The notes beneath the pieces are model-generated. The model was given only the letters and a program-made list of their open reading frames with translations, was not told the DNA's origin and did no database searches. From an uncultured virus (IMG/VR IMGVR_UViG_3300015607_003969) (Duplodnaviria; Heunggongvirae; Uroviricota; Caudoviricetes), in IMG/VR virus record IMGVR_UViG_3300015607_003969, positions 1 to 64,000 of that record: 64,000 bases of DNA. One strand, 5' to 3'. Shown here one piece after another: positions 60 through 60,293 of this stretch; position 1 is the first letter of the stretch; the number at the start of each line of letters is the position of its first letter. Position numbers and translations under genes: made by a program.

Positions 60-611
60 ATGGATGTCCTGAAGAATTACATGGCGGCCCCCGTGGTCGA
101 GTCGCTGGCGCGTAAGTACCAAGACGCGAAAGGGGGTGTCTTCGTGGACACGCACACGATCCTGATCCTACCCAGCCTTCAAGGGCGCGCCCCGCGTGTG
201 ATCTGCCCCGTTCAAAACCAGTACAGCGTACCCGAGCACCTTTTCTGGAGGGGACCGCAGATCCTGATCATCCCCACGAGGAGGGAGGTTATGAAAACCC
301 CTAAGCTACCCGCGCTGCTCATGCCACCAGACCCCAGATCGCTGCTGAACGACATACCCATAAGCCCCCTCCCGCTTACTCCGGAAAAGGTACACGCGCT
401 GTCTCTGGCTTCCGGGATCCATTTCGTGAGTGGGCAGCCCCTCGCATACAAGGGGCGGCTCTTCCCGCTCTACGAGTCGGAGTACCTTATCTCCTTGGAC
501 CCTATGGAGCTTTTTCTTGCAGGAGCGCTTGTGATTGGGCCTGCGATTGTCCGATTCACACGGAGCACAAGTAGGATCATCGTCTTGCAAGGAAAGGTGG
601 TTGACAGATGA
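60..611 (+). CDS. Fusion of a truncated 'KNY..P' family module with a PPDPRS-family module
   Basis: N-terminus MDVLKNYMAAP; internal in-frame ATG at 291 preceded by GGGAGG and followed by LLMPPDPRS. Confidence 0.7.
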   Translation: MDVLKNYMAAPVVESLARKYQDAKGGVFVDTHTILILPSLQGRAPRVICPVQNQYSVPEHLFWRGPQILIIPTRREVMKTPKLPALLMPPDPRSLLNDIPISPLPLTPEKVHALSLASGIHFVSGQPLAYKGRLFPLYESEYLISLDPMELFLAGALVIGPAIVRFTRSTSRIIVLQGKVVDR

Positions 612-973
612 AGCACATAAAAGGCTACATGGCCCCCCATAAGGCGGAAGCCCTGTGGACAGGGTTCGTATTCATGCAGCCCATACCTATGTCCGCACTC
701 TTGGTGCTGCCGCAGCTGGCCCCCAGCGGACCTTGTTTGCTTCGCCCACTGACCAAGCACATGTGGAACAGGTTGGATACCCGAGCCTGGACCCCCGACG
801 ATGATATCGCTGCGGCGCTCATCATCGTGCGAGACGCTCTTCCGCTTAGCCTGCTGCATCAGGAGGAGGGTGTGCACGTGAACGCGGGGGACCTGCTTCT
901 CTTCAACGGCCTCGAAGCCTTCCACCACAGGGTCTGGGTGGAGGGGCCCACCTTGTGCTTCCAGCATAAATGA
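608..973 (+). CDS. AlkB/2OG-DSBH-like paralog (family A)
   Basis: MKHIKGYMAP start; C-terminal VNAGDLLLFNG..FHHRV; ATGA overlap with the upstream gene. Confidence 0.65.
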   Translation: MKHIKGYMAPHKAEALWTGFVFMQPIPMSALLVLPQLAPSGPCLLRPLTKHMWNRLDTRAWTPDDDIAAALIIVRDALPLSLLHQEEGVHVNAGDLLLFNGLEAFHHRVWVEGPTLCFQHK

Positions 974-982
974 GAGGAACAG

Positions 983-2747: not shown

Positions 2748-2783
2748 ATACCGGAATAAGAGTGGGGAGCAGGGAGGTGTTTC

Positions 2784-3185
2784 GTGGAAGTGCTCCAACA
2801 GTACGTCAAACCACGCATCATTGAAGACTTAGTCGCATCATTCAGCGGAAGGGAGAGTAAGACCTGCAACGGCTGGTCCTATTTCGAGGCCACTGCCCGT
2901 GAGTCGTTGCTCTTCTGTGGGCTGGAGGGTGTCGGCCCGCTCATCTGGATCCGGCTGAACGCTCTTGTACACAGCGATCTCCGCCCCATCACGTTCCGAG
3001 CAGCGCTCTTCCCTACGCAGGCCGCTCGGGTAACGCTAACGCGCGGCAGGATAGTCACCGTTGGAACACAGGACGGGGTATGCGGGTTCAAGGGAGACCT
3101 GTTCCGGCTAACCCCGGAGGAGACCATGGACTGCTGGGTGTACTGCACTGGTCCTGTGTTGGCTCTTTGCAGGAGGAAACGGTGA
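2784..3185 (+). CDS. Family A paralog (contains an interior TTA at 2829)
   Basis: MEVLQQYVKP...FKGDLFRL; GGGAGG RBS. Confidence 0.65.
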   Translation: MEVLQQYVKPRIIEDLVASFSGRESKTCNGWSYFEATARESLLFCGLEGVGPLIWIRLNALVHSDLRPITFRAALFPTQAARVTLTRGRIVTVGTQDGVCGFKGDLFRLTPEETMDCWVYCTGPVLALCRRKR

Positions 3186-4821: not shown

Positions 4822-5164
4822 AAGGATTCTGGTGCCACCGGATCCGCGAAGCCCGATAGGTCAACTGCACGACGATGCTCTACACCACAGCCTCGACGTG
4901 GGGATGCTGGCGACCCTCTCCCTTCAGCTGGGAGAGCCCTTTGTAGGCGGCTGGTGTGGGCGTTTTCACGGCACCTTCAACATACTGAGTGGGCATTATG
5001 CCATACCGCTTAGCCCGGTGACCATGGCCATGACCCGAGGGCGGGTGGAGGCGGGTACGTTGATCCACTCCAAAACGAGCGACATTTCGATCTACCACCC
5101 AGGCCGAGGCCCTTACTACATCGTCGTGCTCTATGACCGCTTACACCATCCTGATTCCACCTGA
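4814..5164 (+). CDS. PPDPRS-family protein (ends at 5143 if TTA is a stop)
   Basis: MNKRILVPPDPRS; GAGGAGG RBS. Confidence 0.7.
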   Translation: MNKRILVPPDPRSPIGQLHDDALHHSLDVGMLATLSLQLGEPFVGGWCGRFHGTFNILSGHYAIPLSPVTMAMTRGRVEAGTLIHSKTSDISIYHPGRGPYYIVVLYDRLHHPDST

Positions 5165-6150: not shown

Positions 6151-6435
6151 CTATAAGGCAGGCAGCAGCGACCCGATGCCCAGCGCCGGAGCGATCGGCC
6201 CAACCGCCGACAGGTTCGCCATCTCCCGCAGACGTCGTCCTAGCGCTGTCCTGGCACGTACCAGCCGCAGGGCACTTAGGGCGCCCTGGCTCAGGCGAGT
6301 GATGGATATTGACCCGCCCGCAGCGGCTACGGCGATCTCGTGCAGCTCGTTGACGATCTCGTACAGGTTCCGGATGTCCGCATTCAACCCGGAGCCCCTC
6401 AAGAGGTGCGGTCTTAGCGGGGTATACGCAGACAT
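6151..6435 (-). CDS. Small hypothetical protein
   Basis: MSAYTPLRP...ADIRNLYEIVNELHEIA, protein-like composition; AGGAGG upstream; ends TTA-TAG. Confidence 0.45.
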   Translation of the reverse strand: MSAYTPLRPHLLRGSGLNADIRNLYEIVNELHEIAVAAAGGSISITRLSQGALSALRLVRARTALGRRLREMANLSAVGPIAPALGIGSLLPAL

Positions 6436-6512
6436 TGCAGCCCATCCTATCCTCCTGGCTTCAGCTACGCATAGATCCGTTGAAAAGAAGGTATAAAAAG
6501 GTAGGAGACCAC

Positions 6513-9482: not shown

Positions 9483-10073
9483 GTGGAAGCATGCTGTGGT
9501 TCGCAGAGGAGCAGCAGATCTAGGTCTTGCCTGCCGGAGGTCCTCTACGGCCTTTCGGAGGGGAACCAGTTCATTTACCAACCCTACAGAAAATCCAGGG
9601 GGTCCGGGTGGCTGGGCGTAGGGTTTTTCAGCTGCCTCCTGAATGCGGCGGAGTACTACGCTCGAAATCTGGATCGATCCACCCTGCTACACTACGATAG
9701 TGTCGTCCCCACGGGGCTGATCGAGCTGCTCGGGGGCAACGTGCACTACAATGGGCTGCGGCCCACCGTTTTCCACCTCGCCTCGGATCTGATCGGCGCA
9801 AAGACAGAGGAGCTCTCAAGCATTCTGTCGGCCGTGACTGGGCATGACTCCAGGTTCAGTAACCTTGCTGAGTGGGATGCCACGCAGGAGTTCCCGCTGT
9901 ACCCCGCCTGGGACTATGCCGGCAGGTTCGTGCCCAGGGTCATGGGGGATCATTGGCTACCCAACTACCGCCCCTCCTGGGCCGTGGACACCGCTTTGCG
10001 TATGCTTGAGAACTCCCCCTCGGCGGGTCCTCTCTATCTTCGATTAATAGCAGGAATAACGGAGGTGGCATGA
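9483..10073 (+). CDS. Hypothetical protein, start uncertain
   Basis: Long ORF; the best RBS (AGGAGG) points to an out-of-frame ATG at 9491. Confidence 0.45.
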   Translation: MEACCGSQRSSRSRSCLPEVLYGLSEGNQFIYQPYRKSRGSGWLGVGFFSCLLNAAEYYARNLDRSTLLHYDSVVPTGLIELLGGNVHYNGLRPTVFHLASDLIGAKTEELSSILSAVTGHDSRFSNLAEWDATQEFPLYPAWDYAGRFVPRVMGDHWLPNYRPSWAVDTALRMLENSPSAGPLYLRLIAGITEVA

Positions 10074-12889: not shown

Positions 12890-13294
12890 ATGCCCTGTGT
12901 AAAGATTCCGGGCTACGTAAGCCCAACGGTGGCCATGGAGTTGGACCTAGAGGTTCCACGGGATCGCTGGCACGTGATGGAGGCACCCCTGAGGGCACGG
13001 TTGATCTTGGGGGCTTATGCACCAGAGCGGGTGCTCCGGCTGGCCCGTGTGCCCTCGTGGTCTATGATGGCCGACGGCGTATTCGAGAAGTACACCATTC
13101 TAGGCACCTCCGAGACCGAGGTTAGTATCGGCGCTGAGACCTATGACATCAAGCCCGGAGATGTCCTTGAGGTGCCGCGGCAGGTAGCGATAGCGTCCTA
13201 TCTCGGTGTGACCGGAGGGGTGCTGGTCTTCTTCAACCCTAATGATCCATTACGATGGAACACCTGCAAAAGTACTTCACCCCGCCCCTCGTAG
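12890..13294 (+). CDS. Family A paralog (ends at 13252 if TTA is a stop)
   Basis: VKIPGYVSP...IKPGDVLEV; AGGAGG RBS. Confidence 0.7.
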   Translation: MPCVKIPGYVSPTVAMELDLEVPRDRWHVMEAPLRARLILGAYAPERVLRLARVPSWSMMADGVFEKYTILGTSETEVSIGAETYDIKPGDVLEVPRQVAIASYLGVTGGVLVFFNPNDPLRWNTCKSTSPRPS

Positions 13295-15918: not shown

Positions 15919-16440
15919 ATGAAGGTGGAAACACACATGACGACGTACACCCCAGATTCGCTGAGCACCGCCCTAACGACCGGCACTGTCGGTTCGCTGA
16001 GCACCGTAGCGAGCGCCATCACCGGGACAGCTACGGCATCATATTACATCGGAACCAACAGGCCAGCACTTGAACTCTTCGTGAAGCGCGGTTGGTTCCC
16101 CGCGGACCTGACGCCTAACAGCCCCTGGGCTCAGCTTCTCCACGCTCTCGAAGCCGGTCATCCGGTGGACCCCATGGACCTGCCCTGCGTACGCTTTGGC
16201 CTGGCGGATCTAGGCATCCGTTTCACTTCGATCGCCAAGACCGAGGTAGTAGACAACCACGTCGTGGTCCGCACCTGCTCGTGTCTTATCTCCTTCGGGC
16301 GCATCGCCTTGGTAGATGAAACGCAGGACGCCCTGCACAGCGGAGACCTCGTGCATACGTCAGGCGTCCTGCGCCACATGATCCTGCGCGGGTCCGGCAT
16401 CGCGTTCATGCTGTCTTTAGGGGGGTCGTCATGCATGTGA
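15919..16440 (+). CDS. Family A-related protein (ends at 16419 if TTA is a stop)
   Basis: VKRGWFP...LISFG...LHSGDLV; alternative ATG at 15937. Confidence 0.6.
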   Translation: MKVETHMTTYTPDSLSTALTTGTVGSLSTVASAITGTATASYYIGTNRPALELFVKRGWFPADLTPNSPWAQLLHALEAGHPVDPMDLPCVRFGLADLGIRFTSIAKTEVVDNHVVVRTCSCLISFGRIALVDETQDALHSGDLVHTSGVLRHMILRGSGIAFMLSLGGSSCM

Positions 16441-18782: not shown

Positions 18783-19295
18783 ATGTTGTATTTCAACGGG
18801 ATTGAGGACCAGGAATCCAGGGAGGCTCGAAACTTCGTGCTGAGCCAGGCCTGGAGCGCGTCCTTCGCGATAAAGTCTCACCAGACGGAGGACTACGAGA
18901 CCAACAGCTACCTGGCCCAGCACCCGGATGTGCCGGTAGAGTGGCTGCTGCGCTACCTGGCGAGCTACGGCACCGCCTGGAGCAACCCCTCGCTGGAGGA
19001 TCACCTCAGGCTGAGGAGCACGTATGCCTCGGCCTACGCCATCGTCTGCAAGCACTGGCTCGGCGTGCATGTCCAGTCCACTCAGCCTCTGGGGGACGAC
19101 GTACTCCTGCGCATGGGGGTGCTGGAGCAGGCGTTGCCCCTCGTTATCGCCTCCGGGGACAGCGGCATCGCCCTGGCGGGGTACCAGGTGGAGTACGGGA
19201 CCTGGGAGATGCGACATCACGCCCTCCACTTCAGGCCTTACTGGAACAAGGTTAAGCCCTTGCTGGAGCGGATGTACGTGCTATTCGGGCCCTTA
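18783..19295 (+). CDS. (N/H)PxxP...WxNP family protein, first half of the listed 18783-19754 ORF, ending at TTA
   Basis: LAQHPDVP...AWSNPSL; TTA at 19293 directly precedes a terminator-like hairpin. Confidence 0.55.
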
Positions 19296-23359: not shown

Positions 23360-24037
23360 ATGGCGAACTACACGAACAAGATGAAGATGCTCAACCTGGA
23401 CGGTATGAGCGACTCCCAGCTGGAAGACGTTCTTCTACGCTGTGAGAGGACACGCGACGAAGCCCGCGTCCGGGTGGCCGCTTACGCCAAGCTGATCGGC
23501 CTCTCGGGGAAGGACGGGGTGGACGCTGGCGCTCTCCTGAGCCTTCTCGACGCGATATACTGGAGTCTGCCGAAGAGGCTCCGGTGGAGGGGGACCAAAA
23601 AGCCGAGGTTCGAGAAGTACATCGCGTTCTTCTGGCGGATCGAGAAGTCCCTGCGCGCTCAGCTGCGGCACATCAAAACCTTGGCCTTGGCTAACCCTCC
23701 GGCCACGAAGCGCGAGATGGACGAGGCGTTCGACGTTTGGCACAAGCTGTTCGAGGTGCACCTGTGGTACTCGAAGTTCCATGACCCCAAGAGGTACCGG
23801 CTGATCGGCCAGATCGACCTCAATCTGGTGTGCCGGACCTCTTTGCCTACCTTGCTCGCGCATGTCCGTGCGTCGGAGGACGTGTACAAGAGGCGGGTGA
23901 GGAAGCTGCTGCACGCGGTGGTGCAGTTCGACATGTGCAAGCTCGCGTATGGGCCGAACAGCCAGAAATCCCGGGAGAGCTGGGCCCGTGTCGAGAGGCT
24001 GAAGAGGGGCATCCCCTCCCGTATTCTGGCGCCTTTA
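23360..24037 (+). CDS. Hypothetical helical protein (ends at TTA 24035-24037; standard code would run to 24235)
   Basis: TTA-C-ATG junction; standard reading overlaps the next gene by 197 nt. Confidence 0.55.
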
Positions 24038-38500: not shown

Positions 38501-41500
38501 GGAAGGTGACCTCCCAGGCGACGCACCCAGGATGGACGCTGAAGGAGCGCACCGCACACGGGCGCATGGAGCCGTTCACCATGCCAAACACGTAAGTGCT
38601 GGGCGGGACATCGTACTCCTTCGTTCCGCCCAGCGAGCGATGCTCCGACCCAGCCACCCTCGGGAAGTCCTTGATGTCGCAGGATCGAGCCAGCCAGGTG
38701 CCGTGAACGCGCTCGGCCAACAGGACGCGCCCCTTGATGCTGTCCCCGTCGTGGTCCGCGTTAAACCCGCCGGTTACCAGCGGGTGCAGCTTGATGGCGT
38801 TGCCGGGGATGGCCTGGGCGTAGAAGGCCTGGATAGAGTACTTGTGCAGAGCGGGGTCTCGCTTGATCAGGACAGGGCGCTCGCTCAAGACCTGATTGAG
38901 TGCGGACCAGACGGAGGGGTCCGATTTGCCGCGCTCCACCTGGCTGAGGACCTCCTGGGCTTCCAGCGTAGTCTTGGACCTTCCGGACTTGACGAGCTGG
39001 TTGACGACGAAGGGCCGGAACAGGGTCAGCGCCTGCTTTTCGGGCAGCCCGACCTGGTCGAGGTGGAGATCCGGTCCAGGGATGATCACACCTCGGGCGC
39101 TCATGTCCTGGCGACGCGACAGCAACCCCTGCTGGAAGAGACCGAGCTTGGGTGACGTGCCGTGGATCTGCTGGAGAAGGCCTTTCTGCTTAGCCCCCTC
39201 CGGCAGAGCTCCCGCGCCGAACAGGGCCTTGACCCCGTCGTAGACCGCCATACGGAAGGGAGCCTTCTCTGCCTCGGGCAGGTACGCCATGGCGGGGTGG
39301 CCGAGCTTGCTGTTGATCTGCCCAAGCTTCATGTAGAAGCCGTTGGTGTCCTCGAAGCGAAGCGCGCCGTCTTCCATGACGGAGAGGGGGCGCAGCTTGG
39401 GGGGCAGCACCGGCACGTTGTGCAGCACATAGGCCTCTTCGGGCTTTAGCCCGAGCTTGTCGAGGGCCTGGAGGTACCGCGCCTTCCTATAAAGGGCGTC
39501 TGCCGTGGAGGGTGGGGCCTTGTTCAGGGCTGCCTTGGTCTTCGAGAGCTCATCCGCCACCTTGATGCCCTTGAGCATCTCCTCGATAGCGTGGCCGCCC
39601 ACCTTGCCGTTGACCTTGACTTTGCCCTGGAGAATCTCTTCAAAACGGGGCCCCGTGATGCCCAGGAGCTTCTTGATGGGCTCTTCGAAGATAGGGTTGG
39701 GGAGGGGCTCCGACAGGGGGATGTGAGACCACTTGGTTCCGCCGTGGCCCCCCGTCATCTTCTCGTCGAAGATACCTCCGGTAATCGGCTTGTACTGGTT
39801 GGTGGTCGGGTCCATCTTCGAGTGGACCGCAGAGGCCGCGTCCTTGATCGCACCGGCACTCATCGATAGGACTTGCTTGTCCGTCATGGGGGATAGAAAG
39901 AACTCGGACCCCTTCTTCTCGACGTTAATGCCAGCGCCCTTGAGCATCTCCGTGAAGCGGTGGAAGGCAAACGTCGGCTTAGGGGGCGGCAACGGCAGAC
40001 CTTTCTGCATCGCCATCCAGGCCTCTACGTGCTGACTCTTCCACTTCTTGGCCTCATCGGTCTCCGGGTCCTCACCCTCGGACTTGTAGGTCATGGCCGC
40101 GCGGAGGATGTTCTTCGCCCCGTGCGCGAGCAGGGCGTACATGCCGAGCTGGCCGTAGCTCTGTCCGCCGGTACCTCCGCCAGAAGCCGGGGCAAAGGTA
40201 AGGGAGTCGTACTTCTCGTCGGAGGGCAGCTTGGGGAGCCCCATGCCTGCGCGCACGGAGTTCTTCTTTGCAGCTTGGTGCACGAGCTTGATGAAGTGCT
40301 GAGGCCCGACCAGGACCTTGCCCAGGCTCTGCCCCGTCTTCGGGTCGATCAGCTCCTCCTTGTCGGAGATGCCGTGCTCCTTGAGCTCCTTGGCCATCTT
40401 CTGACTCCAATCCTCGACGTGAGGATCGAAGTTCTTGACCACGTACGTCTTGCCAGTCTTCTCAGCGATCTTGCCGGCCAAGGTCTCGTACACCTGGCCC
40501 ACGTTCATACGGCCACCCAACCCTAGCGGGTTGAAGATGATGTCCACGGGTTTGCCGTCTTTGGTCTTGGGCGCCTCGTGGTCCGGGATGATGTAGCCGA
40601 CAACGCCCTTGCCGCCGTGGCGGTTGCTGTTGCCGCTCCAGCAGGGCTTTCCGTTACGACGCACGTAGAGGACGTGACCGGGGACCGTTACACAGAAAAC
40701 AGGGCCTGTGTAGTTTTCGATGATCCTCTCACTCTGCGCGTTCTGCTTCTTGGCGTGGTGGTGGTTTACCTCCGGAGCCAGTTTGCTGTTGATGATCCGA
40801 ACGGTGTAGCGCTCCGACGCCCAGTAGGTCCGGCCGTTTTGTTCGAACGCGTGGGCTGGATCAACCTTGATGTTGGCCGCCTTACCGATGTGCAGACAGA
40901 GGCGCTGCACATCATCGGCCAGCCGACGAGACGTGGTGGTGTAGCAGATAGGACGATCATTCTTCGTGTGGCCGTCCCCCCACATGAGCCACCGGAAGAG
41001 CACGTCCAAGTCGTCCTTCGGGTAGTCGAAGACTTCGTTTGGGATGAACTTGTCCTTGCACTTACCGAAAGTCTGGAAGTGCGCCAGGGCTTCCTTGGAG
41101 TGGATCCGGGCACGATCAGGGGTCTTGGTGTACCGAACCCCCATCCTATCGAGCTCGGCAAAGAGCTCCTCTCTGCCCGTGGGCTTCACCTGGGCGATGT
41201 CGATGCCGTAGGTGCCAGACTCCGGAGCATTCACGCAACAGCCTTCGGACAAAAACATCCCAAGGAGAGCCAGGTAGTCGCGGCCCGTAAGCCCCAACAC
41301 CCCGGAGCCGTTAACGGCAGCGGCACGACCTGCCCAGTTGCCGTCTTTCTTGTAGCGGACGCGCTTACCAAGAAGAGTGTCGGCCCTCACCAGCTTGTAG
41401 GGGCGCTCGCGGTCACGGGTGGACTCTTGCACGTACATCCGGTGGTTTGCGGTCACAAGAAGGTCGATCTGTTGCGTCTCCAACGAGTACATCCGACCCC

Positions 41501-47847: not shown

Positions 47848-47850
47848 GCG

Positions 47851-47894
47851 CACGGACTTCCGGGGGGAAAGTCCGTGTTTTTTAGCCCCTAAAA
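47851..47894. terminator. Terminator at the convergent vWA/portal junction
   Basis: CACGGACTT...AAGTCCGTG hairpin followed by TTTTTTAGCCCC. Confidence 0.65.
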
Positions 47895-49884: not shown

Positions 49885-49890
49885 TCTCGA

Positions 49891-50748
49891 TCACCCTGCT
49901 TCTGCGGTGGGTCGCGGTAGGGGAGGAGGCACGTCTACCTTGCGCGCCAGCTCCTGGATGGGCAAAGTCATCATATGGTTTACCCCGGTCCCCGCCGTGA
50001 TCTGGCCGAGGAGGGAGCCTGTAACAGACTTGGCCGTGGTGGCCATCTGAAGGGGCGCCGTGGCCAGGTTAAGCGCCGTGGTGCCCCCTATCTCAACGGC
50101 CTTCCTGAGCCGGCTTCGGGGGTCCTCCTCGCTGGGGTCCGTCGCGATGCTGGCTGCCCCTCCGATGAGGGGGGATAGGATCAAGGCCTTGCCGAGGGTG
50201 TCTGTGCCTGCCCAAGTCCCCTTGGCGGCCTTACGCACGGTGTCCAGCGTGCGTGACGGGGTCACCAGCCCCTTGACCAATCCCGGAAGGTTGGTGAGAC
50301 CTGATTGTTCTGCATCGACCACAGCCTTGTGGCTGTCGAGGGCCCGTCGGAAGGCCTCCTGCGCGGCGTGCTGCTCGGTGGCCTTACTCTCAAGGACAGC
50401 CTTCCTCGCGTTGTCGAGGATGCCCTGCGTGTACCCGGATCCGCCGCCCAGGTCCGCCAGGCTCTTCCCCTGCGGCAAGTGGCCCGTAAGCGAGTAGAGC
50501 GTCTTATGTCCGTAGTTCGTTAGCCCCTCTGCCATGTCTGGCGAGAACCTACGCACGCCGGCACCGACAGCCCCGCCAACAACCGCCCCCTGTAGCCCCC
50601 TCTTGAGCCCCCCCTTCAGGGCATCGGACCAAGAAGCCCCTTCGTTCCTGGAAGCAGAGACCGACTGGCCAAAGCCGGCCAGTGCACCAAGGCCTGCTCC
50701 GGCCAGGGTGGGGGCTAGGTAGTTGGCGAGCTTAATCGGGCTACGCAT
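49891..50748 (-). CDS. Gly/Ala-rich probable virion protein with hydrophobic GxxxG segments
   Basis: LAGAGLGALAG and GAVVGGAVGAG; start overlaps the upstream TTA (TTATG). Confidence 0.6.
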   Translation of the reverse strand: MRSPIKLANYLAPTLAGAGLGALAGFGQSVSASRNEGASWSDALKGGLKRGLQGAVVGGAVGAGVRRFSPDMAEGLTNYGHKTLYSLTGHLPQGKSLADLGGGSGYTQGILDNARKAVLESKATEQHAAQEAFRRALDSHKAVVDAEQSGLTNLPGLVKGLVTPSRTLDTVRKAAKGTWAGTDTLGKALILSPLIGGAASIATDPSEEDPRSRLRKAVEIGGTTALNLATAPLQMATTAKSVTGSLLGQITAGTGVNHMMTLPIQELARKVDVPPPLPRPTAEAG

Positions 50749-51566
50749 AAGCGCCTCGCGATGTGGAGTTGTTGCTCAAGGAGTTTCCTCTGCTGGTCAA
50801 GGTAGAGCTCGATCTCCAGCATCTTCCTCAGCTGCTCGTCCTCCATCGAGTCACCCTCTGGGGCCTTGCCAGTACGCTTCACCTCCGGCCACCTGCGAAG
50901 GATCTGTCCGCGGTCCATGTCAAGCCAGTGGCCCTGGACCGTGATGAAGGCGCAAGCATCCACCCCCATGGCCACCTGATCGTGCTGGTACACGGTCGAT
51001 AGGAAGCGTTTGAGTTCGGTGGACCAAGGGTCCGGTCTTGTGTCGATGATGTCGAGCGTCCGTACGGCGAACGTGGCCTCAGCGGCGCTGGGCACCTGCA
51101 TCTGCTCGAAGTCGGGCAGTACGCTGTTGAAGGCCGAACACACCGGCAAAAACATCTCCCAGTGGGTCCACGGACCTTCGCTGGTGTGCGCCAGCTGACA
51201 GGCCATGACCTTGGACAGGTTCACAGGGAGAACTGGGCCAAAGGCGTCCTCGATAGCGTGCTCCACGGTCGACATGGTCCAGCCCAGCCAGTCCAGCTCG
51301 TACTTCTTGAGCAGCAGCATGCTCAGGACCAGCGGGTGAGCCTCGGGCAAGCTCCAAACTGTACTGGCGTTCAGTGTGGCCGGGTGCGGGGGAAGATGTA
51401 TCTCGTGGTGGTGCTCCTCCAAGGGCAAGGCGTCCACCACCACGTCTGTGGACTCACCGAAGGGCTGCAACTCGCCGTCTTTGGGCGCCTGCTCCAGGAG
51501 GAACCGCTCCACCCGGTCGAGCTCCGTTTCGAAAAGATCAGTGCCCAACGTGCAGCCCTCGACCAT
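50748..51566 (-). CDS. Hypothetical structural-cluster protein (standard code ends at 50715)
   Basis: Long ORF; TTA overlaps the next ATG by 1 nt. Confidence 0.6.
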
Positions 51567-52905
51567 CCCTGCCGTTGGACATGGCCACCCTGCCCAGCAG
51601 CTTGCGCTGTTCGACAGGCAACGACTTGTACGTGCCCACGGGGTCGCTCATGAACTTCAGCACGAAGGCCTTGTCGTAGAGCCTGTTGAGGGAGACCCTT
51701 CCCGTCTCCGTCTGGGCTGCGCTGTGCAGACCTGTGGCCGTGATCATGTCCGTACCCAGGATCTCGCTAAACTCAGCGAGCTTCACGGGAGCGAACAGGC
51801 AGCCCCAGGGGTCGGTGATGTGCGTGTCGTAGAGGCGATCCAGCCCCGCCTTCTTATCGAAGGCGTGCATGAGCGCAGCAAAGTCCTCGTTGGGGAGCGC
51901 CAGGTCGAGGTGCGCAGAGGCGATCTTGTCCAGGAGCCCTACGTCCTTCTCCTCTGCAAAGCGCCTGCGCACAGCCCAGGCCTCCTTGCAGTGTTCGTGA
52001 GACCCCAGCGTAGGGGCGCCATAGCGCTGCACGTCTTCCGACACCGCGAAAGCGCACTCTTCGGCCCGCTTGTAGAGGTTGGTCGCATACTCCCGGCGCA
52101 CCACGGGGCTCATGCTGCGGTAGTTATCGTCGAAGTACTCGCTGGCCGTCTTGATCTGGAGGGCGTCGTCGATCGGGTACCTGGAAGGGTTGGCGAGGCA
52201 GAACCTCCCGCCAGCCCTCTTGACGAGATCCGGCTGGTTGTCCCTCCCGGACACGTCGAGGTACGCGTGCTTCATGGTGCCGTACTCTTGAAAGGCCGGC
52301 TTCTTGGGCTTGTTCTCTTGGTACGGCATCACGTCCGTGCCTGAAAGGTCGGCGAGCTTCACGGTTAAACCTCCAAACGAGCTGAGGGGGAGGACGCTGC
52401 CGCCAGCTCCAGCGGCTTGACTCAAGTTAGCACCCATGGCCTTGCCAGCACCCGCCAGGCTCATCCCCGTCATGACCTTGCCCACAGCGCCCAGGGGGTT
52501 GTTCACCACCGACTTACCCACGGCTCCCAGCCCCTTCATGATGAGGCCGCCGAAAGCGATCTTTTCCAGGCTATCGGGGCGCCTGAGCCCGTACCAGTCA
52601 GAGGCCAAGCACAGGTTGGCTGCCGCCATCTTCTGCGCTTCGGGGGGCAGAACCCCGCCCAGGTGCATGAAATACAAGGTGCTGAGCGCGGTGTTGCCCG
52701 CGTCCACCGTCGCCAGCTTGCGCATCGACTCCCCCTCGTTGGTGAGCCGGAGGGCGAAGAGGGCGTCCGGCAGGGACGCTAGCTTGGCGCTCAGGTCCGC
52801 CGCACTCTTGAGCACGGGAGGCGTGCCGTGCGGGAAAACCGCAGAAACGAGCACCCTGGACGGGTCGTCGTAGGGGTCCAGAACCAGGCCGGAGAAGTTG
52901 CGCAT
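51538..52905 (-). CDS. KxA-rich probable head protein, possibly two genes split at TTA 52368-52366
   Basis: GGAGG-7 nt-GTG (52362) directly follows the in-frame TTA. Confidence 0.6.
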   Translation of the reverse strand: MRNFSGLVLDPYDDPSRVLVSAVFPHGTPPVLKSAADLSAKLASLPDALFALRLTNEGESMRKLATVDAGNTALSTLYFMHLGGVLPPEAQKMAAANLCLASDWYGLRRPDSLEKIAFGGLIMKGLGAVGKSVVNNPLGAVGKVMTGMSLAGAGKAMGANLSQAAGAGGSVLPLSSFGGLTVKLADLSGTDVMPYQENKPKKPAFQEYGTMKHAYLDVSGRDNQPDLVKRAGGRFCLANPSRYPIDDALQIKTASEYFDDNYRSMSPVVRREYATNLYKRAEECAFAVSEDVQRYGAPTLGSHEHCKEAWAVRRRFAEEKDVGLLDKIASAHLDLALPNEDFAALMHAFDKKAGLDRLYDTHITDPWGCLFAPVKLAEFSEILGTDMITATGLHSAAQTETGRVSLNRLYDKAFVLKFMSDPVGTYKSLPVEQRKLLGRVAMSNGRDGRGLHVGH

Positions 52906-52955
52906 GCCCCAAGAGTAGTCGGTATTCGGGAAGAAGAGGAGCGAAAGGGCACACC

Positions 52956-53555
52956 ATGAGAGATATGGAATGTTTCGGCCGCGACTGGTCTAGCGGGGAC
53001 GTGGCCTGTGTGGGGGGTCCGGATTACGGCCAAAACGGGACTCGGCAGCCCCCCTGTGACCTGGAGCGGGCGTGTAAGGCACATGTGGCGCACGCAGCTC
53101 TCCAGCTGATCCCCGTGACCCGCCTGACGAACGGCCAGCAGAGCCCCCACCAGGAGCCTGCCAGGAACGTCTACCCGCCGCCCCCTCCTGCGCAGTCCAC
53201 GGCCATCCAGCAGCGCCCGCAGGCACACCCCCCTCAGGTCCACCAGGTCGGGCCCCCTACGGTCGGTCATATGGCGCCCCGCCAGGGAGAGAGCGTGGGT
53301 TATCCGCAAACGCACACCCAGATGCAGGTACAAGGCCCCCATACGATGGGCAGGGTCCACTACAACCCTGTGGCCGTTGACACCGTCAGCTTCCTGGGGC
53401 GGAAGGAGGGCAGGAAGAAGAAGGTTAAGTCCTTCTTCCTGGAGATGTTCCGCGCTGGGGCGAAGGGGGCTTTCATGCAGGGTGCTGACTTCTTTGACGG
53501 CGTCGTGCTCGGGGACGATGATGACGACGGCGGAGGTCCGAGTGGCAGAAGGTTA
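52956..53555 (+). CDS. Hypothetical protein, N-terminal Cys cluster and Pro/Gln linker (standard code ends at 53750)
   Basis: CFG..C..C..C; acidic DDDDD shortly before the TTA. Confidence 0.55.
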
Positions 53556-56576: not shown

Positions 56577-56579
56577 AGC

Positions 56580-58013
56580 ATGAGCAGAGATCTACCGCTG
56601 ATCAGCCGCATCATACGCGAAGGGCCCCCGGCCATGGCCGACGTGCAGGCGTGGGGCATCACCGAAGAGGACCTTCTCACGCCAGAGGGTCGCGGGTTCT
56701 ATAGGTACCTGCTCGACTACATCACGCAGCCTGCAACCCGGGGGTCACTCCCGGGAATCTACCAGATCCAGGCGCACTACCCGGATTTTCGACTCGTGGA
56801 TGACGCAGGCATGGCTACGTCTGCCCTCTGCCACGAGCTTCGAAGCCACCGCATCCGGGTGAGTGTAGATAAGGCCCTTCGGGAGGCGGATAAGGAGCGC
56901 GACGGGGACCCAGAAGAGGCGATTGAGCGGCTATCCGCCAAGTTGGCCGACCTTCGATCCCTGTCCAAGCGTACGGGGATCACCACGCTCACCAGCTACA
57001 TCCCTCGTGGCCTGGAGCGCTACGAGATGCTGGAGGCCGGGCTCGCCGTGAACCCGATCATGTGGCCCTGGCCTCTCCTCAACAGGCTAAGCCGCGGGAT
57101 CGAGCCGACAGACTACGTGATCTACTACGGCAGGCCTAAAAACAAGAAGAGCTTCGTGGTGCTGCACCACGCCATGGACATCTTCTTGGAGCAAGGCAAG
57201 CACGTGCTCTTCTACTCGAAGGAGATGCCCGAAGAGCAGATCATGTGGCGGCTCATGGCCTTCCTGGCCAACGTGGACTACGAGTCCTTCAGCAGCGGAA
57301 CGCTGGACGCGACGTCCAAGGCCAGGCTCCATGAGATGGCCAACATGGCGCTTGCCAGGGCGCAGCAGAGCAACGGCAAAAACCAGATCAGCTGCGTGTC
57401 TGGCCGCGATGCCCCGAGGGGCAGCGATACCGTTGGCTGGCTTCGGCAGCAGATAAAGCGGCTTCAGCCCGACGTCGTCTTCATCGACGGACTCTACCTG
57501 ATGACCGCGCACATCAAGGCCAAGGACACCCGCGAAAAGGTGGAATCCATCTCCCGGGAGGTGCGGGCCGTGTCCCTTGACCTGAAGATCCCTGTGATCG
57601 CCACCATCCAGGCGAACCGTGGAGCGGACAAGTCCGGGCTCGAAGCTGACCTGGACGAGATCGGCTTCAGCGATGCACCTGGGCAAGACGCCACCGTGGC
57701 TATTCGTATTGTCGCAAGCAAGACTGACAGCACTGTCAATCTACTATTCCCCGGCGTACGTGAATGGCGTGCTACCGGTTTGAAGATCAACGCTGTGCCG
57801 TGTGTAGACTTCAGCGAGATCGCGCTGCTGGATCCCGATGCCATAAGGAGGTCTATTGCGGAGGATGTTCCTGACGAAGAGCCCGCTGTCACCGCCCCTC
57901 TCGGCGGGGCACCGGCCCCGCTAGGGCCCCCCTCGGGCCGTAAACCCCGGAAGAAAGCCAAGGTGTATAGCCGCCTAGATGACATCGATGGGGGCGGTGG
58001 CGCCGATGGGTGA
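56580..58013 (+). CDS. dnaB: DnaB-like replicative helicase
   Basis: GRPKNKKS, SKEM, VFIDGLYLM, IPVIATIQANR, SDAPGQDA. Confidence 0.85.
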   Translation: MSRDLPLISRIIREGPPAMADVQAWGITEEDLLTPEGRGFYRYLLDYITQPATRGSLPGIYQIQAHYPDFRLVDDAGMATSALCHELRSHRIRVSVDKALREADKERDGDPEEAIERLSAKLADLRSLSKRTGITTLTSYIPRGLERYEMLEAGLAVNPIMWPWPLLNRLSRGIEPTDYVIYYGRPKNKKSFVVLHHAMDIFLEQGKHVLFYSKEMPEEQIMWRLMAFLANVDYESFSSGTLDATSKARLHEMANMALARAQQSNGKNQISCVSGRDAPRGSDTVGWLRQQIKRLQPDVVFIDGLYLMTAHIKAKDTREKVESISREVRAVSLDLKIPVIATIQANRGADKSGLEADLDEIGFSDAPGQDATVAIRIVASKTDSTVNLLFPGVREWRATGLKINAVPCVDFSEIALLDPDAIRRSIAEDVPDEEPAVTAPLGGAPAPLGPPSGRKPRKKAKVYSRLDDIDGGGGADG

Positions 58014-59019
58014 GGGGTTCCTCCTCCCCGTCATCCAACAGCTACTTGGTGAGACCAGGCGCGCGGGCAGGGGCAATGTGATGGCCCTCTGCCCGTTCCC
58101 GCACGCTACAGGCAGGGACCACACACCCTCCTTTGCCATCCACACCGAGACAGGCCTCTGGCTGTGTCATGCGTGTAAGAGGTGCGGAAACTTCCGGGCA
58201 TTGCTGCGGGGGCTTGGGTCCCCCTCGGGCTCCATCGAGAAGATCGTGGAGTTGGCGGCCGAGATCCAGCGGGAGTCCCAGCTGGATGTGGCCGACCAAG
58301 CTGTCTGGGTGCGCGCCTTCCCCAAGGACCGTGTGCTGCCAGAGGAATCGTTGGGTCTCTTCGATGAGGCCCCTACGGACTTGATTCGGGCAGGGTTCTC
58401 CAAGAGGCTGCTGAGGACGTTCAACGTTGGATTCGACAGGAAGAACTGTCGAATCACCTTCCCGCTCAGAGACCACACGGGGCAGCTCGTGGGGTTCAGC
58501 GGCAGGTCCATCTTCGAGGATCAAGTGCCTCGATACAAAGTTTACACAAAACGGGAATATGGGAGGTGGGGCCTACCGCTCCTCGACCCGCCAGAGAAAG
58601 GGAAGCTGCTATGGAACTACGACCAGGTCGCCGCGATCAGCGAGCACGCGCCTGGTTCACCAGTCATCGTTAGCGAAGGATTCAAGAGCACCCTGTGGTT
58701 GCGCCAGTGCGGCTACCCTTACGTGGTCGCGTTGCTCGGATCGATTATGACCGAGGAGCAGCAAGCGCTGCTTGAACGACTCAACGGGGTGCTCTATCTG
58801 TTTTTGGACCAAGACCCGGCAGGAGACCACCGGTACGAGATGGCAGAGAAGCTGAGCGAAAGTAGCGATGTTCGCCTACCCCTCTACCCTCGTGGAGGTA
58901 AGCTCCAGCCGGACGCCTTGACCCCAGAAGAAGTGCACCAGGCGCTAAACAGTGCGCCAACCTATACCTCCTATTGCCTCAACCGCTGTAAGCAGCCAAC
59001 AAAGTACCCACGTATATGA
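58006..59019 (+). CDS. dnaG: DnaG-like primase
   Basis: CPFPH..H.PSF..WLCHAC zinc finger; RITFPL, GFSGR; TOPRIM SEG and DQDPAG. Confidence 0.85.
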   Translation: MGEGFLLPVIQQLLGETRRAGRGNVMALCPFPHATGRDHTPSFAIHTETGLWLCHACKRCGNFRALLRGLGSPSGSIEKIVELAAEIQRESQLDVADQAVWVRAFPKDRVLPEESLGLFDEAPTDLIRAGFSKRLLRTFNVGFDRKNCRITFPLRDHTGQLVGFSGRSIFEDQVPRYKVYTKREYGRWGLPLLDPPEKGKLLWNYDQVAAISEHAPGSPVIVSEGFKSTLWLRQCGYPYVVALLGSIMTEEQQALLERLNGVLYLFLDQDPAGDHRYEMAEKLSESSDVRLPLYPRGGKLQPDALTPEEVHQALNSAPTYTSYCLNRCKQPTKYPRI

Positions 59020-60293
59020 ACAACCGAAACGACGATTCTCCTCCCCCGCCGCCGCCCCCTGTCACGACGCACGCCTTCGGCAAGGAGCCTCCTCCCGCAG
59101 GCTTGCCGAGCTTTGGCGCCTCCTTCATCCCTCCCGAGCAGAGCTTCTCTGCGCCCCGGGGCGGCTCCGGCGGGTCTCGGCGTGAGTACGTCGAGACGTG
59201 GCGCTTCCCCCTGGGCGTCTCCATCTCGTTCGTCCTCATCCCGGGGTCCTACAAGAACAAGGTGGCGATCCCCCGGCTGGCAGCCGATGGCTCGCAGATG
59301 AGGGGGCCCAACAACGAGGCCCTCTACACGATCCAGGAGGTCACGGAGCTCTACAAGCGCGGCGTGGACCACTACGACGAGTACGCTCCGGGCACGAGGA
59401 AGTCCTTCGTGTGCGCCGCCCCGGAGTACCCGTACGCCGACGCGAACTCTGCGGCGCTGTGCGGGGGCTGCCGGGTGATCCACGAGAACACCAAGTGGGA
59501 CGACAAGGCGCGCAGGTACGTGACGAAGGGCTCGCTGACGCGGAGGGCCGGCCGCGCCTTCGGCATCGCGATCCTCCACCCCTTCTACGCGGTCCCGTCC
59601 ACCCGCATGGACCGGCGCGGCCAGCCCTACATGGACTACAAGATGGGTCAGGGCCGCAACTGCCCCTACGCAGCCCAAGGTCTCCCGAGGATCGACGGGC
59701 GGCGCTTCGTGTTCAACGCCTCCATGACCAACTTCAGGGAGCTGGTCGGCGGCAGGGGGTACGAGGGGGCGGCCTCCTTCCAGGGAATCCTCCGCAAGAA
59801 CTGCGTCTCCTGTGGGGGCAACATGACGATCGACACCCGGAGCTGGAACTGTCCGAGCTGCCAGCATGAGGTGATCGACATGGCGAACACTCGCCTCACG
59901 GACGCGGAGATCGACAACCGCGTGCAGCAGCGGCTGCCCTGCCCCGCCTGCCGGCAGACGATGCAGCTTGTCGAGGTGATCGAGTGCAAGCAGTGCAAGC
60001 ACCCGCACAGGGCGTCCCTGTTCGACGGGGTGATCACGGCCACTGCTCGCGCCAACAAGGCCACCGAGACCGGGAAGAACACGGGGACCAGCCTCAGCTT
60101 CCAGTACTGGACCCCCCTCCCCGCGGACAGCCCCTACCGGAAGCTGCTGGAGACCCCGCTCGACCTGGACACGATTCGGGGCCCTGCCCCCGTCGATCTC
60201 CAGATCCAGGTGTGCGGCAAGGGCCCCTTGGGGCATGAGCAGAACGCGGCGCACAGCGAGTCCTACGGCAACGACGACAACGTGCCGTTCTTA
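59016..60293 (+). CDS. Probable SSB-like protein with zinc ribbons (standard code ends at 60353)
   Basis: Between primase and polymerase; several CxxC; tail DDNVPF immediately before TTA. Confidence 0.6.

What the first reader, a model, noticed from the sequence alone, without database searches (positions are those of the whole stretch)
77..60293. TTA (UUA) behaves like a stop codon across the window
Seen: scanning the called CDSs by eye, I found no in-frame TTA in rpoBC (2804 codons), terL, polA, dnaB, primase, AAA or vWA, although other AT-rich codons (CTA, TTG, ATA) are used. Nearly every in-frame TTA marks an expected gene end. Strong cases: 60291 directly after the SSB-type tail DDNVPF and before a terminator; 47892-47890(-) at the portal end, where standard reading runs 558 nt through a terminator into the antisense of vWA; 50750-50748(-) overlapping the next ATG as TT-ATG, like TA-ATG/TG-ATG coupling; 24035 (TTA-C-ATG, otherwise 197-nt overlap); 19293 before a hairpin; 53553 (otherwise 209-nt overlap); 13250 (TTA-CG-ATG); 52368-52366(-) inside GGAGG-N7-GTG; 6156-6154(-) as tandem TTA-TAG. 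Weaker cases: 77, 5141, 10044, 16417. One clear interior exception is 2829. About half the sites are followed by C or T, so a single extra-T sequencing error before TAA/TAG cannot explain them all. Known: bacterial RF1/RF2 read only UAA/UAG/UGA; UUA-stop is known from Thraustochytrium mitochondria (code 23), and I know of no phage case. Inference: either a sense-to-stop reassignment or termination at a codon with no available tRNA (bldA-like).
Basis: partly seen in the sequence, partly recalled or inferred. Interest (0 to 1): 0.95.

Follow-up and report, generated by a model that had tools for sequence, protein, structure and literature searches.

The report
Phage uses TTA as stop codon
In this large wastewater phage and its closest relatives the leucine codon TTA is almost never found inside genes but sits exactly where about one gene in five ends, which looks like a sense-to-stop change of the genetic code of a kind so far described only in organelles.

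Summary
The window is part of a phage of at least 162 kb (62% GC) that also stands in IMG/VR and in metagenome runs of several studies with the same TTA sites. In-frame TTA lies at ORF ends: 19 of 35 in the last tenth of the ORF, against 12.6% for 11 control codons (p 4.5e-9). With TTA read as a fourth stop, 12 of 83 window genes and 44 of 201 phage genes end in TTA. Gene overlaps shrink and coverage rises, which happens for no other of the 61 sense codons. 15 of 18 TTA-ended proteins with relatives align to the very C-terminus of homologs that end in TGA, TAA or TAG. Coding signal stops at the TTA, and the distance to the next standard stop is the same as after real stops. The trait is shared by the nearest relatives, which form one clade on the portal tree; sister phages avoid TTA almost completely; more distant, lower-GC relatives use it as ordinary Leu. 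The mechanism is open. No release factor was found in the phage. It carries an odd Trp-type tRNA with anticodon UAA near a PTH2 peptidyl-tRNA hydrolase. One interior TTA (2829) persists.

The parts
47890..47892 (-). TTA at the end of the portal gene (47890-49806, 638 aa, C-terminus EKLPPRRASV)
   Evidence: A relative's portal ends ...EKLPPRRAGGV-TGA at the same column, followed by a hairpin. The consensus of 29 aligned homologs ends ...PPRRAxxxx with R634 and R635 invariant. G7 homolog tails are 0 and 2 aa. Standard reading adds 186 codons antisense to the vWA gene. The public database holds this protein as 808 aa.
60291..60293 (+). TTA at the end of gene 59016-60293 (425 aa, C-terminus SYGNDDNVPF)
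   Evidence: The G4 homolog aligns to its own last residue and ends in TGA, with tails 0 and 0. C-terminus. A terminator-like site lies at 60319-60337. A contig of another run covers the site with 0 differences.
50748..50750 (-). TTA at the end of gene 50748-51566 (272 aa), overlapping the next ATG as TTATG
   Evidence: Homologs in G3 and G4 end in TGA with tails 0 and 2. The next gene starts at 50748 on the minus strand, gap -1.
52366..52368 (-). TTA at the end of gene 52366-52905 (179 aa); GGAGG, then GTG of the next gene two codons later in the same frame
   Evidence: Stand-alone homologs: G7 177 aa (TGA), G3 194 aa (TTA), G4 193 aa (TGA). Only the distant G2 has the two genes fused as 493 aa.
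53553..53555 (+). TTA at the end of gene 52956/53085-53555
   Evidence: The G3 homolog also ends in TTA, with tails 8 and 2. Standard reading gives a long overlap with the helicase gene 53521-55005.
24035..24037 (+). TTA at the end of gene 23360-24037 (225 aa); TTA-C-ATG
   Evidence: The next gene starts at 24039. Standard reading gives a 197-nt overlap.
19293..19295 (+). TTA at the end of gene 18783-19295 (170 aa), followed by a hairpin and the RBS and ATG of gene 19356-19754
   Evidence: 11-bp GC-rich hairpin, -20.4 kcal/mol. Context, gene calls.
13250..13252 (+). TTA at the end of gene 12890-13252; TTA-CG-ATG
   Evidence: The next start is at 13255, gap +2. Standard reading gives a 40-nt overlap.
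10044..10046 (+). TTA at the end of gene 9483-10046
   Evidence: RBS and ATG of the next gene at 10070. No homologs in the four relatives compared.
16417..16419 (+). TTA at the end of gene 15919-16419
   Evidence: Weak: a standard stop follows 7 codons later.
5141..5143 (+). TTA at the end of gene 4814-5143
   Evidence: Gene-structure evidence only.
6154..6156 (-). TTA directly before the standard stop of ORF 6151-6519(-)
   Evidence: Uninformative on its own, because a standard stop follows at once.
2829..2831 (+). the one interior in-frame TTA: codon 16 of ORF 2784-3185 (133 aa)
   Evidence: GGGAGG lies before the GTG start. An 80%-identical, 133-aa homolog has L at this column and identical residues 1-28.
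35538..43952 (-). fused RNA polymerase beta/beta' gene, 2804 codons, with intein and LAGLIDADG domains, free of in-frame TTA
   Evidence: Pfam Rpb2_6, Rpb1_2, Rpb1_5, Intein_splicing and LAGLIDADG_3. No TTA listed for it.

Best explanation
In this phage lineage UUA is a translation-termination signal, a fourth stop beside UGA, UAA and UAG. That much is shown as far as sequence can show it. Inferred mechanism: codon capture. The host lineage of this phage group no longer decodes UUA efficiently as leucine; sister phages have purged TTA far below what base composition predicts. In the host of the clade holding this phage (G1, G3, G4), ribosomes that meet UUA release the finished protein. Because no release-factor domain was found in 162 kb of the phage, the releasing activity is most likely supplied by the host: a release factor with widened specificity, or a rescue factor acting at the empty A site. 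The phage's own Trp-type tRNA with anticodon UAA has an abnormal anticodon arm (U37, C31/C39 mismatch). I read it as a weak suppressor-like tRNA. It would not abolish termination, but it could allow rare read-through, for instance at the single interior TTA at 2829. My odds are about 0.85 that TTA ends translation. The confidence given here is for the whole statement, including the host-side mechanism.
For: Position: 19 of 35 in-frame TTA lie in the last tenth of code-11 ORFs, against 12.6% for controls, p 4.5e-9; the whole 162-kb record has 42 TTA with median position 0.94. Gene structure: adding TTA as a stop raises coverage (0.930 to 0.941) and cuts overlaps (1653 to 1126 bp). TTA ranks first of the 61 sense codons and is the only one that raises coverage, in G1 and in G3 but not in G7. 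Next-gene starts sit at TTA as they do at real stops: TTATG 11 of 44, and gaps of +1 to +3. Homologs: 15 of 18 TTA-ended proteins with relatives match to within 10 residues of both C-termini, and the partners end in TGA, TAA or TAG. Among 21 G1-G3 ortholog pairs with aligned ends, the stop pairs are TTA/TGA 7, TGA/TTA 2, TAA/TTA 1 and TTA/TTA 2. Portal detail. Coding score falls from +0.29 to -0.25 bits per codon across TTA, against +0.22 to -0.34 across standard stops. The distance to the next in-frame standard stop is the same as after real stops: median 20 against 19 codons, p 0.99. Expected TTA count if it were a free Leu codon is 78-98; interior TTA observed is 1. The sequence is real: an IMG/VR record is 99.96% identical, and contigs from runs of other studies cover five sites without a difference. 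Phylogeny: G1, G5, G3 and G4 form one clade (SH-aLRT 100). Its sisters are TTA avoiders: G7 has 4 observed against 66-80 expected, G2 has 2 against 29-52. More distant relatives of lower GC use TTA evenly. No RF-1 domain was found in G1, G3, G4 or G7, nor in Pfam scans of 191 G1 proteins.
Against: The phage encodes a tRNA whose anticodon UAA would read UUA. If it decodes well, TTA cannot be an efficient stop. One probably real gene has TTA at codon 16, and its 80% homolog shows L there. No host is known, so loss of tRNA-Leu(UAA) and any change in a release factor are untested. Two candidate host MAGs of distant relatives show no TTA-stop pattern: one uses TTA evenly as a sense codon, the other has no TTA at all. 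The record is only 87% complete, so a phage factor may lie in the missing part or in one of many proteins without a Pfam match. There are no protein or ribosome data. The gene calls are from my own caller.
Confidence: 0.55

Rival explanations
1. UUA is only an unassigned, 'hungry' codon. Ribosomes stall at it, and the chain is freed without any codon-specific factor, by rescue or splitting and then hydrolysis of the peptidyl-tRNA. The phage PTH2 peptidyl-tRNA hydrolase would help in that last step.
For: A PTH2 gene (Pfam E 9.3e-10; archaeal Pth2 2zv3, E 4.5e-4) lies two genes from the tRNA(UAA) in G1, and directly beside the tRNA cluster in G7. Sister phages purge TTA. No release factor was found in the phage.
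Against: PTH2 is also present in G7, which does not use TTA as a gene end. From general knowledge, not tested here: rescue through tmRNA would tag the proteins for degradation, and long nascent chains rarely drop off. There is no enrichment of backup stops after TTA, which a leaky or slow process would be expected to select for.
Confidence: 0.2
2. The phage tRNA(UAA) is part of the mechanism. It could act as a 'terminator' tRNA that occupies UUA in the A site uncharged or unable to carry translation on. Or it could be a timed suppressor that turns TTA stops into sense codons at one stage of infection.
For: The tRNA is 74 nt with no long variable arm and has discriminator G, U at position 37 and a C/C mismatch closing the anticodon stem. 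Its D and T arms are those of phage tRNA-Trp and of suppressor tRNAs with anticodons tca, tta and cta. Its only close match is the tRNA(CUA) of G3, which lies beside the same SNF2 helicase gene. One interior TTA exists at 2829.
Against: G3 shows the TTA trait but carries tRNA(CUA), not tRNA(UAA), in the 59% of its genome that is held. No conserved read-through products were found: the genes behind the same-frame junctions at 52368 and 122251 stand alone in G3, G4 and G7, and sequence after TTA carries no coding signal. TTA stops occur in early, middle and late regions alike, so a global switch would damage many proteins.
Confidence: 0.12
3. TTA is ordinary leucine. It clusters near gene ends for another reason (AT-rich start regions of the next gene, tolerated stop-loss mutations), and the C-terminal extensions are really made.
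For: Seven of 44 TTA are followed by a standard stop within two codons. Mild end enrichment is seen for some AT-rich control codons, up to 19%.
Against: Extensions reach 309 codons, carry no coding signal and run into neighbouring genes or antisense to them. Homologs stop at the TTA column. About 80-90 interior TTA would be expected, and one is seen.
Confidence: 0.05
4. Artefact: base-calling or assembly error (an extra T before TAA, or TAA or TGA miscalled), or an edited record.
For: None found.
Against: An independent IMG/VR record shares all the sites. Contigs from runs of three further studies (X5, X6, X7) cover 47892, 50750, 52368 and 53553 without a difference at those sites, even in a variant strain; the contig over 60291 (X3) is from the study that may hold the source sample. 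The base after TTA is A in only 6 of 65 cases, the opposite of what a T insertion before TAA would give. Relatives at 45-53% portal identity share the trait at other genes.
Confidence: 0.02

Closest known systems
NCBI genetic code 23 (Thraustochytrium mitochondria): TTA as stop
   Same: The same codon, with the same direction of change (Leu to stop). Table 23 is among the codes the tools offer.
   Different: That case is an organelle with a few dozen genes. Here it is a phage of at least 162 kb translated on bacterial ribosomes, where RF1 and RF2 are known to read only UAA, UAG and UGA (established knowledge).
UCA/UCG sense-to-stop in mitochondria of sphaeroplealean green algae (PMC6821328; abstract and passages read)
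   Same: A sense codon vanishes, its tRNA is absent, and the codon reappears strictly as a terminator. The authors invoke codon capture and changes in the release factor mtRF1a. Their pattern, with a clade that uses the codon as a stop beside relatives that use it as sense, matches.
   Different: It is organellar, and the release-factor changes were seen there. Here neither the host nor its factors are known.
AGA/AGG at the ends of human mitochondrial COX1 and ND6, terminated by mtRF1 (PMC9810596; abstract seen in a search listing)
   Same: Codons without a cognate tRNA that occur only at ORF ends and need a dedicated release factor. An ArfB-type rescue factor (ICT1) was earlier debated as the releasing activity (PMC4472777 and PMC4472662, listings only).
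   Different: There two genes are involved; here 44 of 201. Here a tRNA matching the codon is encoded by the phage.
Stop-codon recoding in phages (TAG or TGA read as amino acids with phage suppressor tRNAs; 10.1101/2021.08.26.457843 and PMC9523058, abstracts in listings)
   Same: A phage lineage whose coding rules differ from the standard table, with a suppressor-type tRNA on a Trp-like body.
   Different: The direction is opposite. Here no standard stop lies inside conserved genes: 0 in-frame stops in 42-69 HSPs per comparison, with one at an HSP end.
Unassigned codons under GC or AT pressure (AGA and AUA in Micrococcus luteus, CGG in Mycoplasma capricolum; PMC4695839, passages read)
   Same: High GC, and disappearance of an A-ending codon. 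G7 and G2 look like this stage.
   Different: In those bacteria the codons are simply absent. Use as a regular gene end is not described in the passages I read.
bldA / TTA regulation in Streptomyces (recalled)
   Same: A rare TTA in a GC-rich genome, dependent on one tRNA.
   Different: There TTA lies inside regulatory genes and is read as Leu by a class II tRNA-Leu. Here it lies at gene ends, and the tRNA is class I with discriminator G.

Membership tests
Sense-to-stop codon reassignment (as in codes 22 and 23) | The codon is absent from conserved interior positions of genes | tested here: met
   No TTA in rpoBC, terL, polA, dnaB, primase, AAA or vWA. One interior TTA against 78-98 expected.
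Sense-to-stop codon reassignment (as in codes 22 and 23) | The codon stands where homologs have a stop codon | tested here: met
   15 of 18 TTA-ended proteins with relatives are end-to-end within 10 aa. Stop-pair counts. Portal.
Sense-to-stop codon reassignment (as in codes 22 and 23) | No functional cognate tRNA for the codon | tested here: inconclusive
   The host is unknown. The phage has a tRNA with anticodon UAA, but with U37, a C31/C39 mismatch, a Trp-type body and G73.
Sense-to-stop codon reassignment (as in codes 22 and 23) | A release factor that recognises the codon | not testable with these tools
   No RF-1 domain in the phage records. The host is not identified.
Sense-to-stop codon reassignment (as in codes 22 and 23) | Protein products end at the codon | not testable with these tools
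   No proteomic or ribosome-profiling data. No RNA run is listed for this phage.
Stop-codon-recoded phages (codes 4 and 15) | In-frame TAG, TGA or TAA inside conserved genes | tested here: not met
   tblastn of relatives' proteins against G1, G3, G4 and G7: 0 internal stops, and one TAG at an HSP end. Removing TAG, TGA or TAA as stops worsens the gene calls.
Stop-codon-recoded phages (codes 4 and 15) | Phage-encoded suppressor tRNA | tested here: inconclusive
   G3 has a canonical tRNA(CUA). G1 has its apparent ortholog with anticodon UAA.
bldA-type TTA control | TTA inside a few regulatory genes, read by a class II tRNA-Leu(UAA) | tested here: not met
   TTA lies at the ends of 44 genes of all classes. 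The tRNA is 74 nt without a long variable arm.

The most novel reading that the evidence does not exclude
A clade of environmental jumbo phages, and by implication their unidentified bacterial host, translates with a four-stop code in which UUA is read by release machinery. This would be the first sense-to-stop reassignment outside organelles. The phage would carry a suppressor-type, Trp-derived tRNA(UAA) against the new stop, used to read through the one interior TTA (2829). That would mirror, for a captured sense codon, what recoded phages do with UAG and UGA.
Probability: 0.4. Interest if true: 0.95.

Novelty: new variant of a known kind. Interest (0 to 1): 0.9.

Why it matters
Changes of the genetic code described in bacteria and phages turn stops into sense codons or swap amino acids. 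In three full-text searches, every sense-to-stop change that came up was organellar. The widely used code-inference program Codetta states that it cannot detect such changes (PMC9825746, passage read), so they may have been overlooked in large surveys. If UUA is a real stop here, bacterial-type termination can be extended to a codon with U at the second position. That would bear on release-factor specificity, on the codon-capture theory, and on how phages and hosts co-evolve their codes. There is also a practical side. Standard annotation of this phage family is wrong at about one gene in five. The public protein for this portal is 808 aa instead of 638, and false overlaps reach up to 558 nt.

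Tried and rejected
- DNA search of the phage collection found no match.
- Release factor in the phage: none found, by Pfam on 191 proteins or by a six-frame PF00472 search of G1, G3, G4 and G7.
- The 134-aa protein between PTH2 and the tRNA has no PHROG, no Atlas hit and no homolog outside its own cluster. I did not fold it.
- TAG recoding in G3, suggested by its tRNA(CUA), is rejected.
- Programmed read-through fusions at 52368 and 122251 are rejected. The genes behind both junctions stand alone in G3 and G7, and the two at 52368 also in G4; only G2 has the 52368 pair fused.
- A +1 shift from TTA-A or TTA-G onto TAA or TAG is rejected. The base after TTA is A in 9% and G in 28% of cases, with no purine excess.
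- Backup stops after TTA are not enriched.
- Host search: the portal family occurs on contigs binned with Myxococcales or Myxococcota (3), Deltaproteobacteria (1), Anaerolineales (2) and Desulfatibacillum (1) MAGs, and on the Pendulispora rubella chromosome. None is close to this phage.
- Samples of 200 kb and 180 kb from two of those MAGs show no TTA-stop pattern. They are not this phage's host, so this says little.
- I listed tRNAs of four MAGs but did not type their anticodons.
- G5 has one TTA in 9.5k codons, which is inconclusive.
- No RNA holder was listed among the sequencing runs.
- The simple terminator scan found 1 site in three regions; folding showed the hairpins it missed.
- Viral-contig searches for closer relatives of ORF 2784-3185 found only this phage.
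- Not used: the metagenome-contig scan, the representative-protein search, structure prediction and complex prediction.

Full report
WHAT THE WINDOW IS. The window is the first 64 kb of a single 125,659-bp contig of 62% GC. That contig is the reverse complement of positions 36649-162306 of an IMG/VR phage record of 162,306 bp, here called G1 (99.96% identity, 46 mismatches, some at N; CheckV completeness 87%). The phage carries:
- a fused RNA polymerase beta/beta' gene of 2804 codons with inteins
- an intein-bearing large terminase
- family A DNA polymerase, DnaB and primase
- nucleotide-metabolism genes
Most of its proteins have no Pfam family. Its portal belongs to a large family, with 279 database proteins at E <= 1e-10 among the 8000 candidates scored, mostly on contigs of 100-200 kb.

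THE OBSERVATION. I wrote a simple gene caller: codon log-odds trained on long ORFs with high GC3, an RBS and start-codon bonus, and greedy removal of overlaps. It is not a validated program, so gene numbers are approximate.
- In the 109 most confident code-11 genes there are 27 in-frame TTA. Their median relative position is 0.95, and 63% lie in the last tenth of the ORF. For 11 other rare or AT-rich codons the figure is 5-19%.
- In a looser set of 142 genes, 19 of 35 TTA lie in the last tenth, against 243 of 1922 control codons (binomial p 4.5e-9). In the window alone the figures are 7 of 15 against 132 of 1040 (p 1.3e-3).

TTA BEHAVES AS A STOP IN FIVE INDEPENDENT RESPECTS.
1. Gene structure. 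Allowing TTA as a fourth stop gives 147 genes on the contig (TGA 74, TTA 34, TAA 25, TAG 14) and 83 in the window (TTA 12). On the whole of G1 it gives 201 genes (TGA 109, TTA 44, TAA 31, TAG 17). Coverage rises from 0.930 to 0.941, and overlapping bases fall from 1653 to 1126. I tried all 61 sense codons as an extra stop. TTA ranks first by score and is the only codon that raises coverage, in G1 and in G3; every other codon only fragments genes.
2. Next-gene starts. The gaps after TTA look like those after real stops: TTATG overlaps in 11 of 44 cases, and gaps of +1, +2 or +3 to an ATG or GTG with an RBS.
3. Coding signal. The mean codon score drops from +0.29 bits before TTA to -0.25 after it in the same frame, and GC3 drops from 0.80 to 0.61. 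Across standard stops the score drops from +0.22 to -0.34. In three cases the score stays positive, because the next gene lies in the same frame with its own start.
4. Distance to the next in-frame standard stop. After TTA the median is 20 codons (range 1-309). After standard stops it is 19 (Mann-Whitney p 0.99; G3: 36 against 30, p 0.5). This is expected if TTA is itself the end. It is not expected if TTA were a Leu codon tolerated only close to a real stop.
5. Homologs. Of the 44 TTA-ended G1 proteins, 18 have a relative in G2, G3, G4 or G7.
   - In 15 of the 18 the alignment reaches within 10 residues of both C-termini, and the partner ends in TGA, TAA or TAG, or in G3 sometimes TTA.
   - The other three are 5 against 13 residues, 17 against 19, and one where the G3 partner is simply shorter.
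   - Among reciprocal-best pairs with aligned ends, G1-G3 (21 pairs) give TTA/TGA 7, TGA/TTA 2, TAA/TTA 1 and TTA/TTA 2. G1-G7 (30 pairs) give TTA/TGA 7 and TTA/TAA 1.
   - The portal ends ...EKLPPRRASV-TTA. A relative of 37% identity ends ...EKLPPRRAGGV-TGA, followed by a hairpin. A 29-sequence alignment ends ...PPRRAxxxx. The public database holds this phage's portal as 808 aa, the read-through product of standard annotation.

If TTA were a freely used Leu codon, TTG x CTA/CTG or TTG x GTA/GTG predicts 78-98 of them in G1.

NOT AN ARTEFACT. The IMG/VR record shares the sites. The phage occurs in wastewater, activated-sludge and freshwater metagenome runs of several studies. Logan contigs of four runs were laid on 47000-61000:
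- X7 covers 47890-47892, 50748-50750, 52366-52368 and 53553-53555 with 0 differences.
- X5 covers 52366-52368 with 0 differences.
- X6, a variant strain with 14 differences nearby, all listed at 53079-53310, keeps 53553-53555.
- X3 covers 60291-60293 with 0 differences.
None of the 40 listed differences falls on a TTA site, though 25 more differences were not shown. Two caveats apply. These are contigs, not raw reads. X3 is from the study that may hold the source sample; X5, X6 and X7 are from other studies. The base after TTA is A in only 6 of 65 cases in G1 plus G3 (chi-square p 0.001 against standard stops), the opposite of what a spurious T before TAA would give.

DISTRIBUTION AMONG RELATIVES. 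An alignment-based scan of IMG/VR gave 80 portal loci.
- Relatives of lower GC use TTA evenly along genes. L058 has 33 TTA with 6% in the last tenth; L094 has 24 with 4%; L084, L091 and L088 are similar.
- G3 (108 kb, 65% GC, portal 53% identical) shows the trait. It has 17 in-frame TTA with median position 0.87. Adding TTA as a stop cuts overlaps from 1025 to 306 bp. Its TTA codons are followed by hairpins with T-runs, RBSs or ATGs.
- G4 (47.6 kb) has 4 TTA, 3 of them in the last tenth.
- G5 has one TTA and is inconclusive.
- On a quick IQ-TREE of 56 portal rows, G1, G5, G3 and G4 form one clade on a long stem (SH-aLRT 100). The careful search did not finish, and G1 is a long branch, so placement should be treated with care.
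- Its sisters are phages that almost lack TTA. G7 (185 kb, rated complete, 61% GC) has 2 to 4 TTA, depending on the gene-call set, in about 56,000 codons against 66-80 expected. G2 has 2 against 29-52. Five 22-kb loci have 0 against 3-13 each.
The order suggested is: ordinary Leu codon, then avoided codon, then stop. That is the codon-capture path described for organelles (PMC6821328; PMC4695839).

WHAT BEARS ON THE MECHANISM.
- No release-factor domain was found. PF00472 searched in six frames over G1, G3, G4 and G7 gave no match at E <= 1, while the controls rang in 11 of 14 genomes. The Pfam scans gave none either.
- Outside the window, the contig encodes two tRNAs. One has anticodon CAU. 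The other, at 92378-92451(-), has anticodon UAA.
- The tRNA(UAA) is not a normal tRNA-Leu. It is 74 nt with no long variable arm. It has discriminator G, an anticodon loop C-U-UAA-U-C with a pyrimidine at position 37, and a C/C mismatch closing the stem. It scores 51 bits against Rfam tRNA.
- Its D and T arms are of the type found in phage tRNA-Trp(CCA). In the 60 IMG/VR loci scanned (of 65 found), the same type also appears in tRNAs with anticodons UCA, UUA and CUA.
- The strict version of the pattern hits only G3. There the tRNA has a canonical loop with anticodon CUA and also lies beside the SNF2 helicase gene.
- G3 nevertheless has no in-frame TAG in conserved genes.
- Two genes upstream of the G1 tRNA lies a PTH2-type peptidyl-tRNA hydrolase. 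G7 also has PTH2 next to its tRNA cluster, so PTH2 is not specific to the trait.
- One interior TTA remains at 2829, codon 16 of ORF 2784-3185. The ORF has an RBS. It has an 80%-identical homolog of the same length, with L at that column in its standard-code translation and identical residues 1-28. I could not fetch that homolog's DNA.

READING. That TTA ends translation in this clade is, in my judgement, about 85% likely. How it does so is inferred. The best fit is a host-side change: UUA no longer decoded as Leu, with release by a host factor. The phage tRNA(UAA) would be a weak suppressor-like tRNA and perhaps serves the 2829 gene. The rivals are non-specific rescue with PTH2, a direct role of the tRNA, ordinary Leu with junk extensions, and artefact. 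They are listed with their odds in the rival section. A hungry-codon +1 shift onto TAA or TAG, read-through fusions, and TAG recoding were tested and rejected.

COMPARISON WITH WHAT IS KNOWN. Sense-to-stop changes are described for organelles:
- UCA and UCG in green-algal mitochondria, with altered mtRF1a (PMC6821328; passages read)
- AGA and AGG in human mitochondria, with mtRF1 (PMC9810596; abstract in listing)
- TTA in code 23 (recalled)
Phage code changes in print are stop-to-sense (10.1101/2021.08.26.457843 and PMC9523058; abstracts in listings). My full-text searches found no phage or bacterial sense-to-stop case. The terms were UUA + stop codon + phage + reassignment (18 papers, 15 listed), sense-to-stop + reassignment (7 papers), and stop codon recoding + bacteriophages + suppressor tRNA + lytic (6 papers). 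The library lacks most subscription journals, so this is not proof of absence. Codetta, used for large surveys of genetic codes, states that it cannot detect sense-to-stop changes (PMC9825746; passage read).

Noticed in passing
contig 92378-92451(-), outside the window (L002:8378-8451): tRNA with anticodon UAA on a Trp-type class I body. It has G73, U37 and a C31/C39 mismatch. Its only close match in IMG/VR is a canonical tRNA(CUA) in the relative G3, next to the same SNF2 helicase gene.
   Followed up: partly
contig 92926-93246(-) (L002:8929-9246); G7:97532-97825(-): PTH2-type peptidyl-tRNA hydrolase encoded next to the phage tRNA genes, both in G1 and in the complete relative G7. This suggests a conserved tRNA-plus-hydrolase module in this phage family.
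   Followed up: partly
window 35538-43952(-), 27003-30038(-): The fused rpoB-rpoC gene (2804 aa) carries intein and LAGLIDADG domains, and the large terminase carries an intein too. Several portal homologs in the family also hold LAGLIDADG inserts (Pfam column).
   Followed up: no
G3 (IMG/VR record of 108,475 bp), 37886-37959: Amber-suppressor-type tRNA(CUA) in a phage with no in-frame TAG in conserved genes and few TAG stops (6 of 105 genes). Its role is unexplained.
   Followed up: partly
contig 118437-118511(-): The second phage tRNA has anticodon CAU, and its anticodon stem lacks the three G-C pairs of initiator tRNAs. G1 uses ATA far more (3.0 per 1000 codons) than G7 (0.39) or G3 (1.08), so this may be a tRNA-Ile2 for ATA. 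The assignment is recalled logic and was not tested.
   Followed up: no
G1 and G3, 65 TTA-ended genes: The base after a terminal TTA is rarely A (9%, against 32% after standard stops) and often C (35%). TTATG start overlaps are frequent (11 of 44 in G1, against TAATG 1 of 31). The cause is unknown; TTAA avoidance or an effect of context on termination are possibilities.
   Followed up: partly
G7 (IMG/VR record of 184,953 bp, rated complete): TTA is almost absent (2-4 in about 56,000 codons against 66-80 expected) and ATA is also very low (22-23). G7 carries tRNA-Arg(UCU), tRNA-Tyr and an odd tRNA with an enlarged anticodon loop beside PTH2.
   Followed up: partly
window 2784-3185(+): Cysteine-rich ORF of 133 aa with TTA at codon 16. 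Its 80% homolog is identical over residues 1-28 and 101-133 but diverged in between, a mosaic pattern that suggests recombination.
   Followed up: partly
window 51538-52905(-) and G2:8020-9501: Two adjacent genes (179 aa and 274 aa) lie in the same frame, separated by TTA-ACC-GTG. They correspond to one fused 493-aa protein in the distant relative G2, but to separate genes in G3, G4 and G7.
   Followed up: yes
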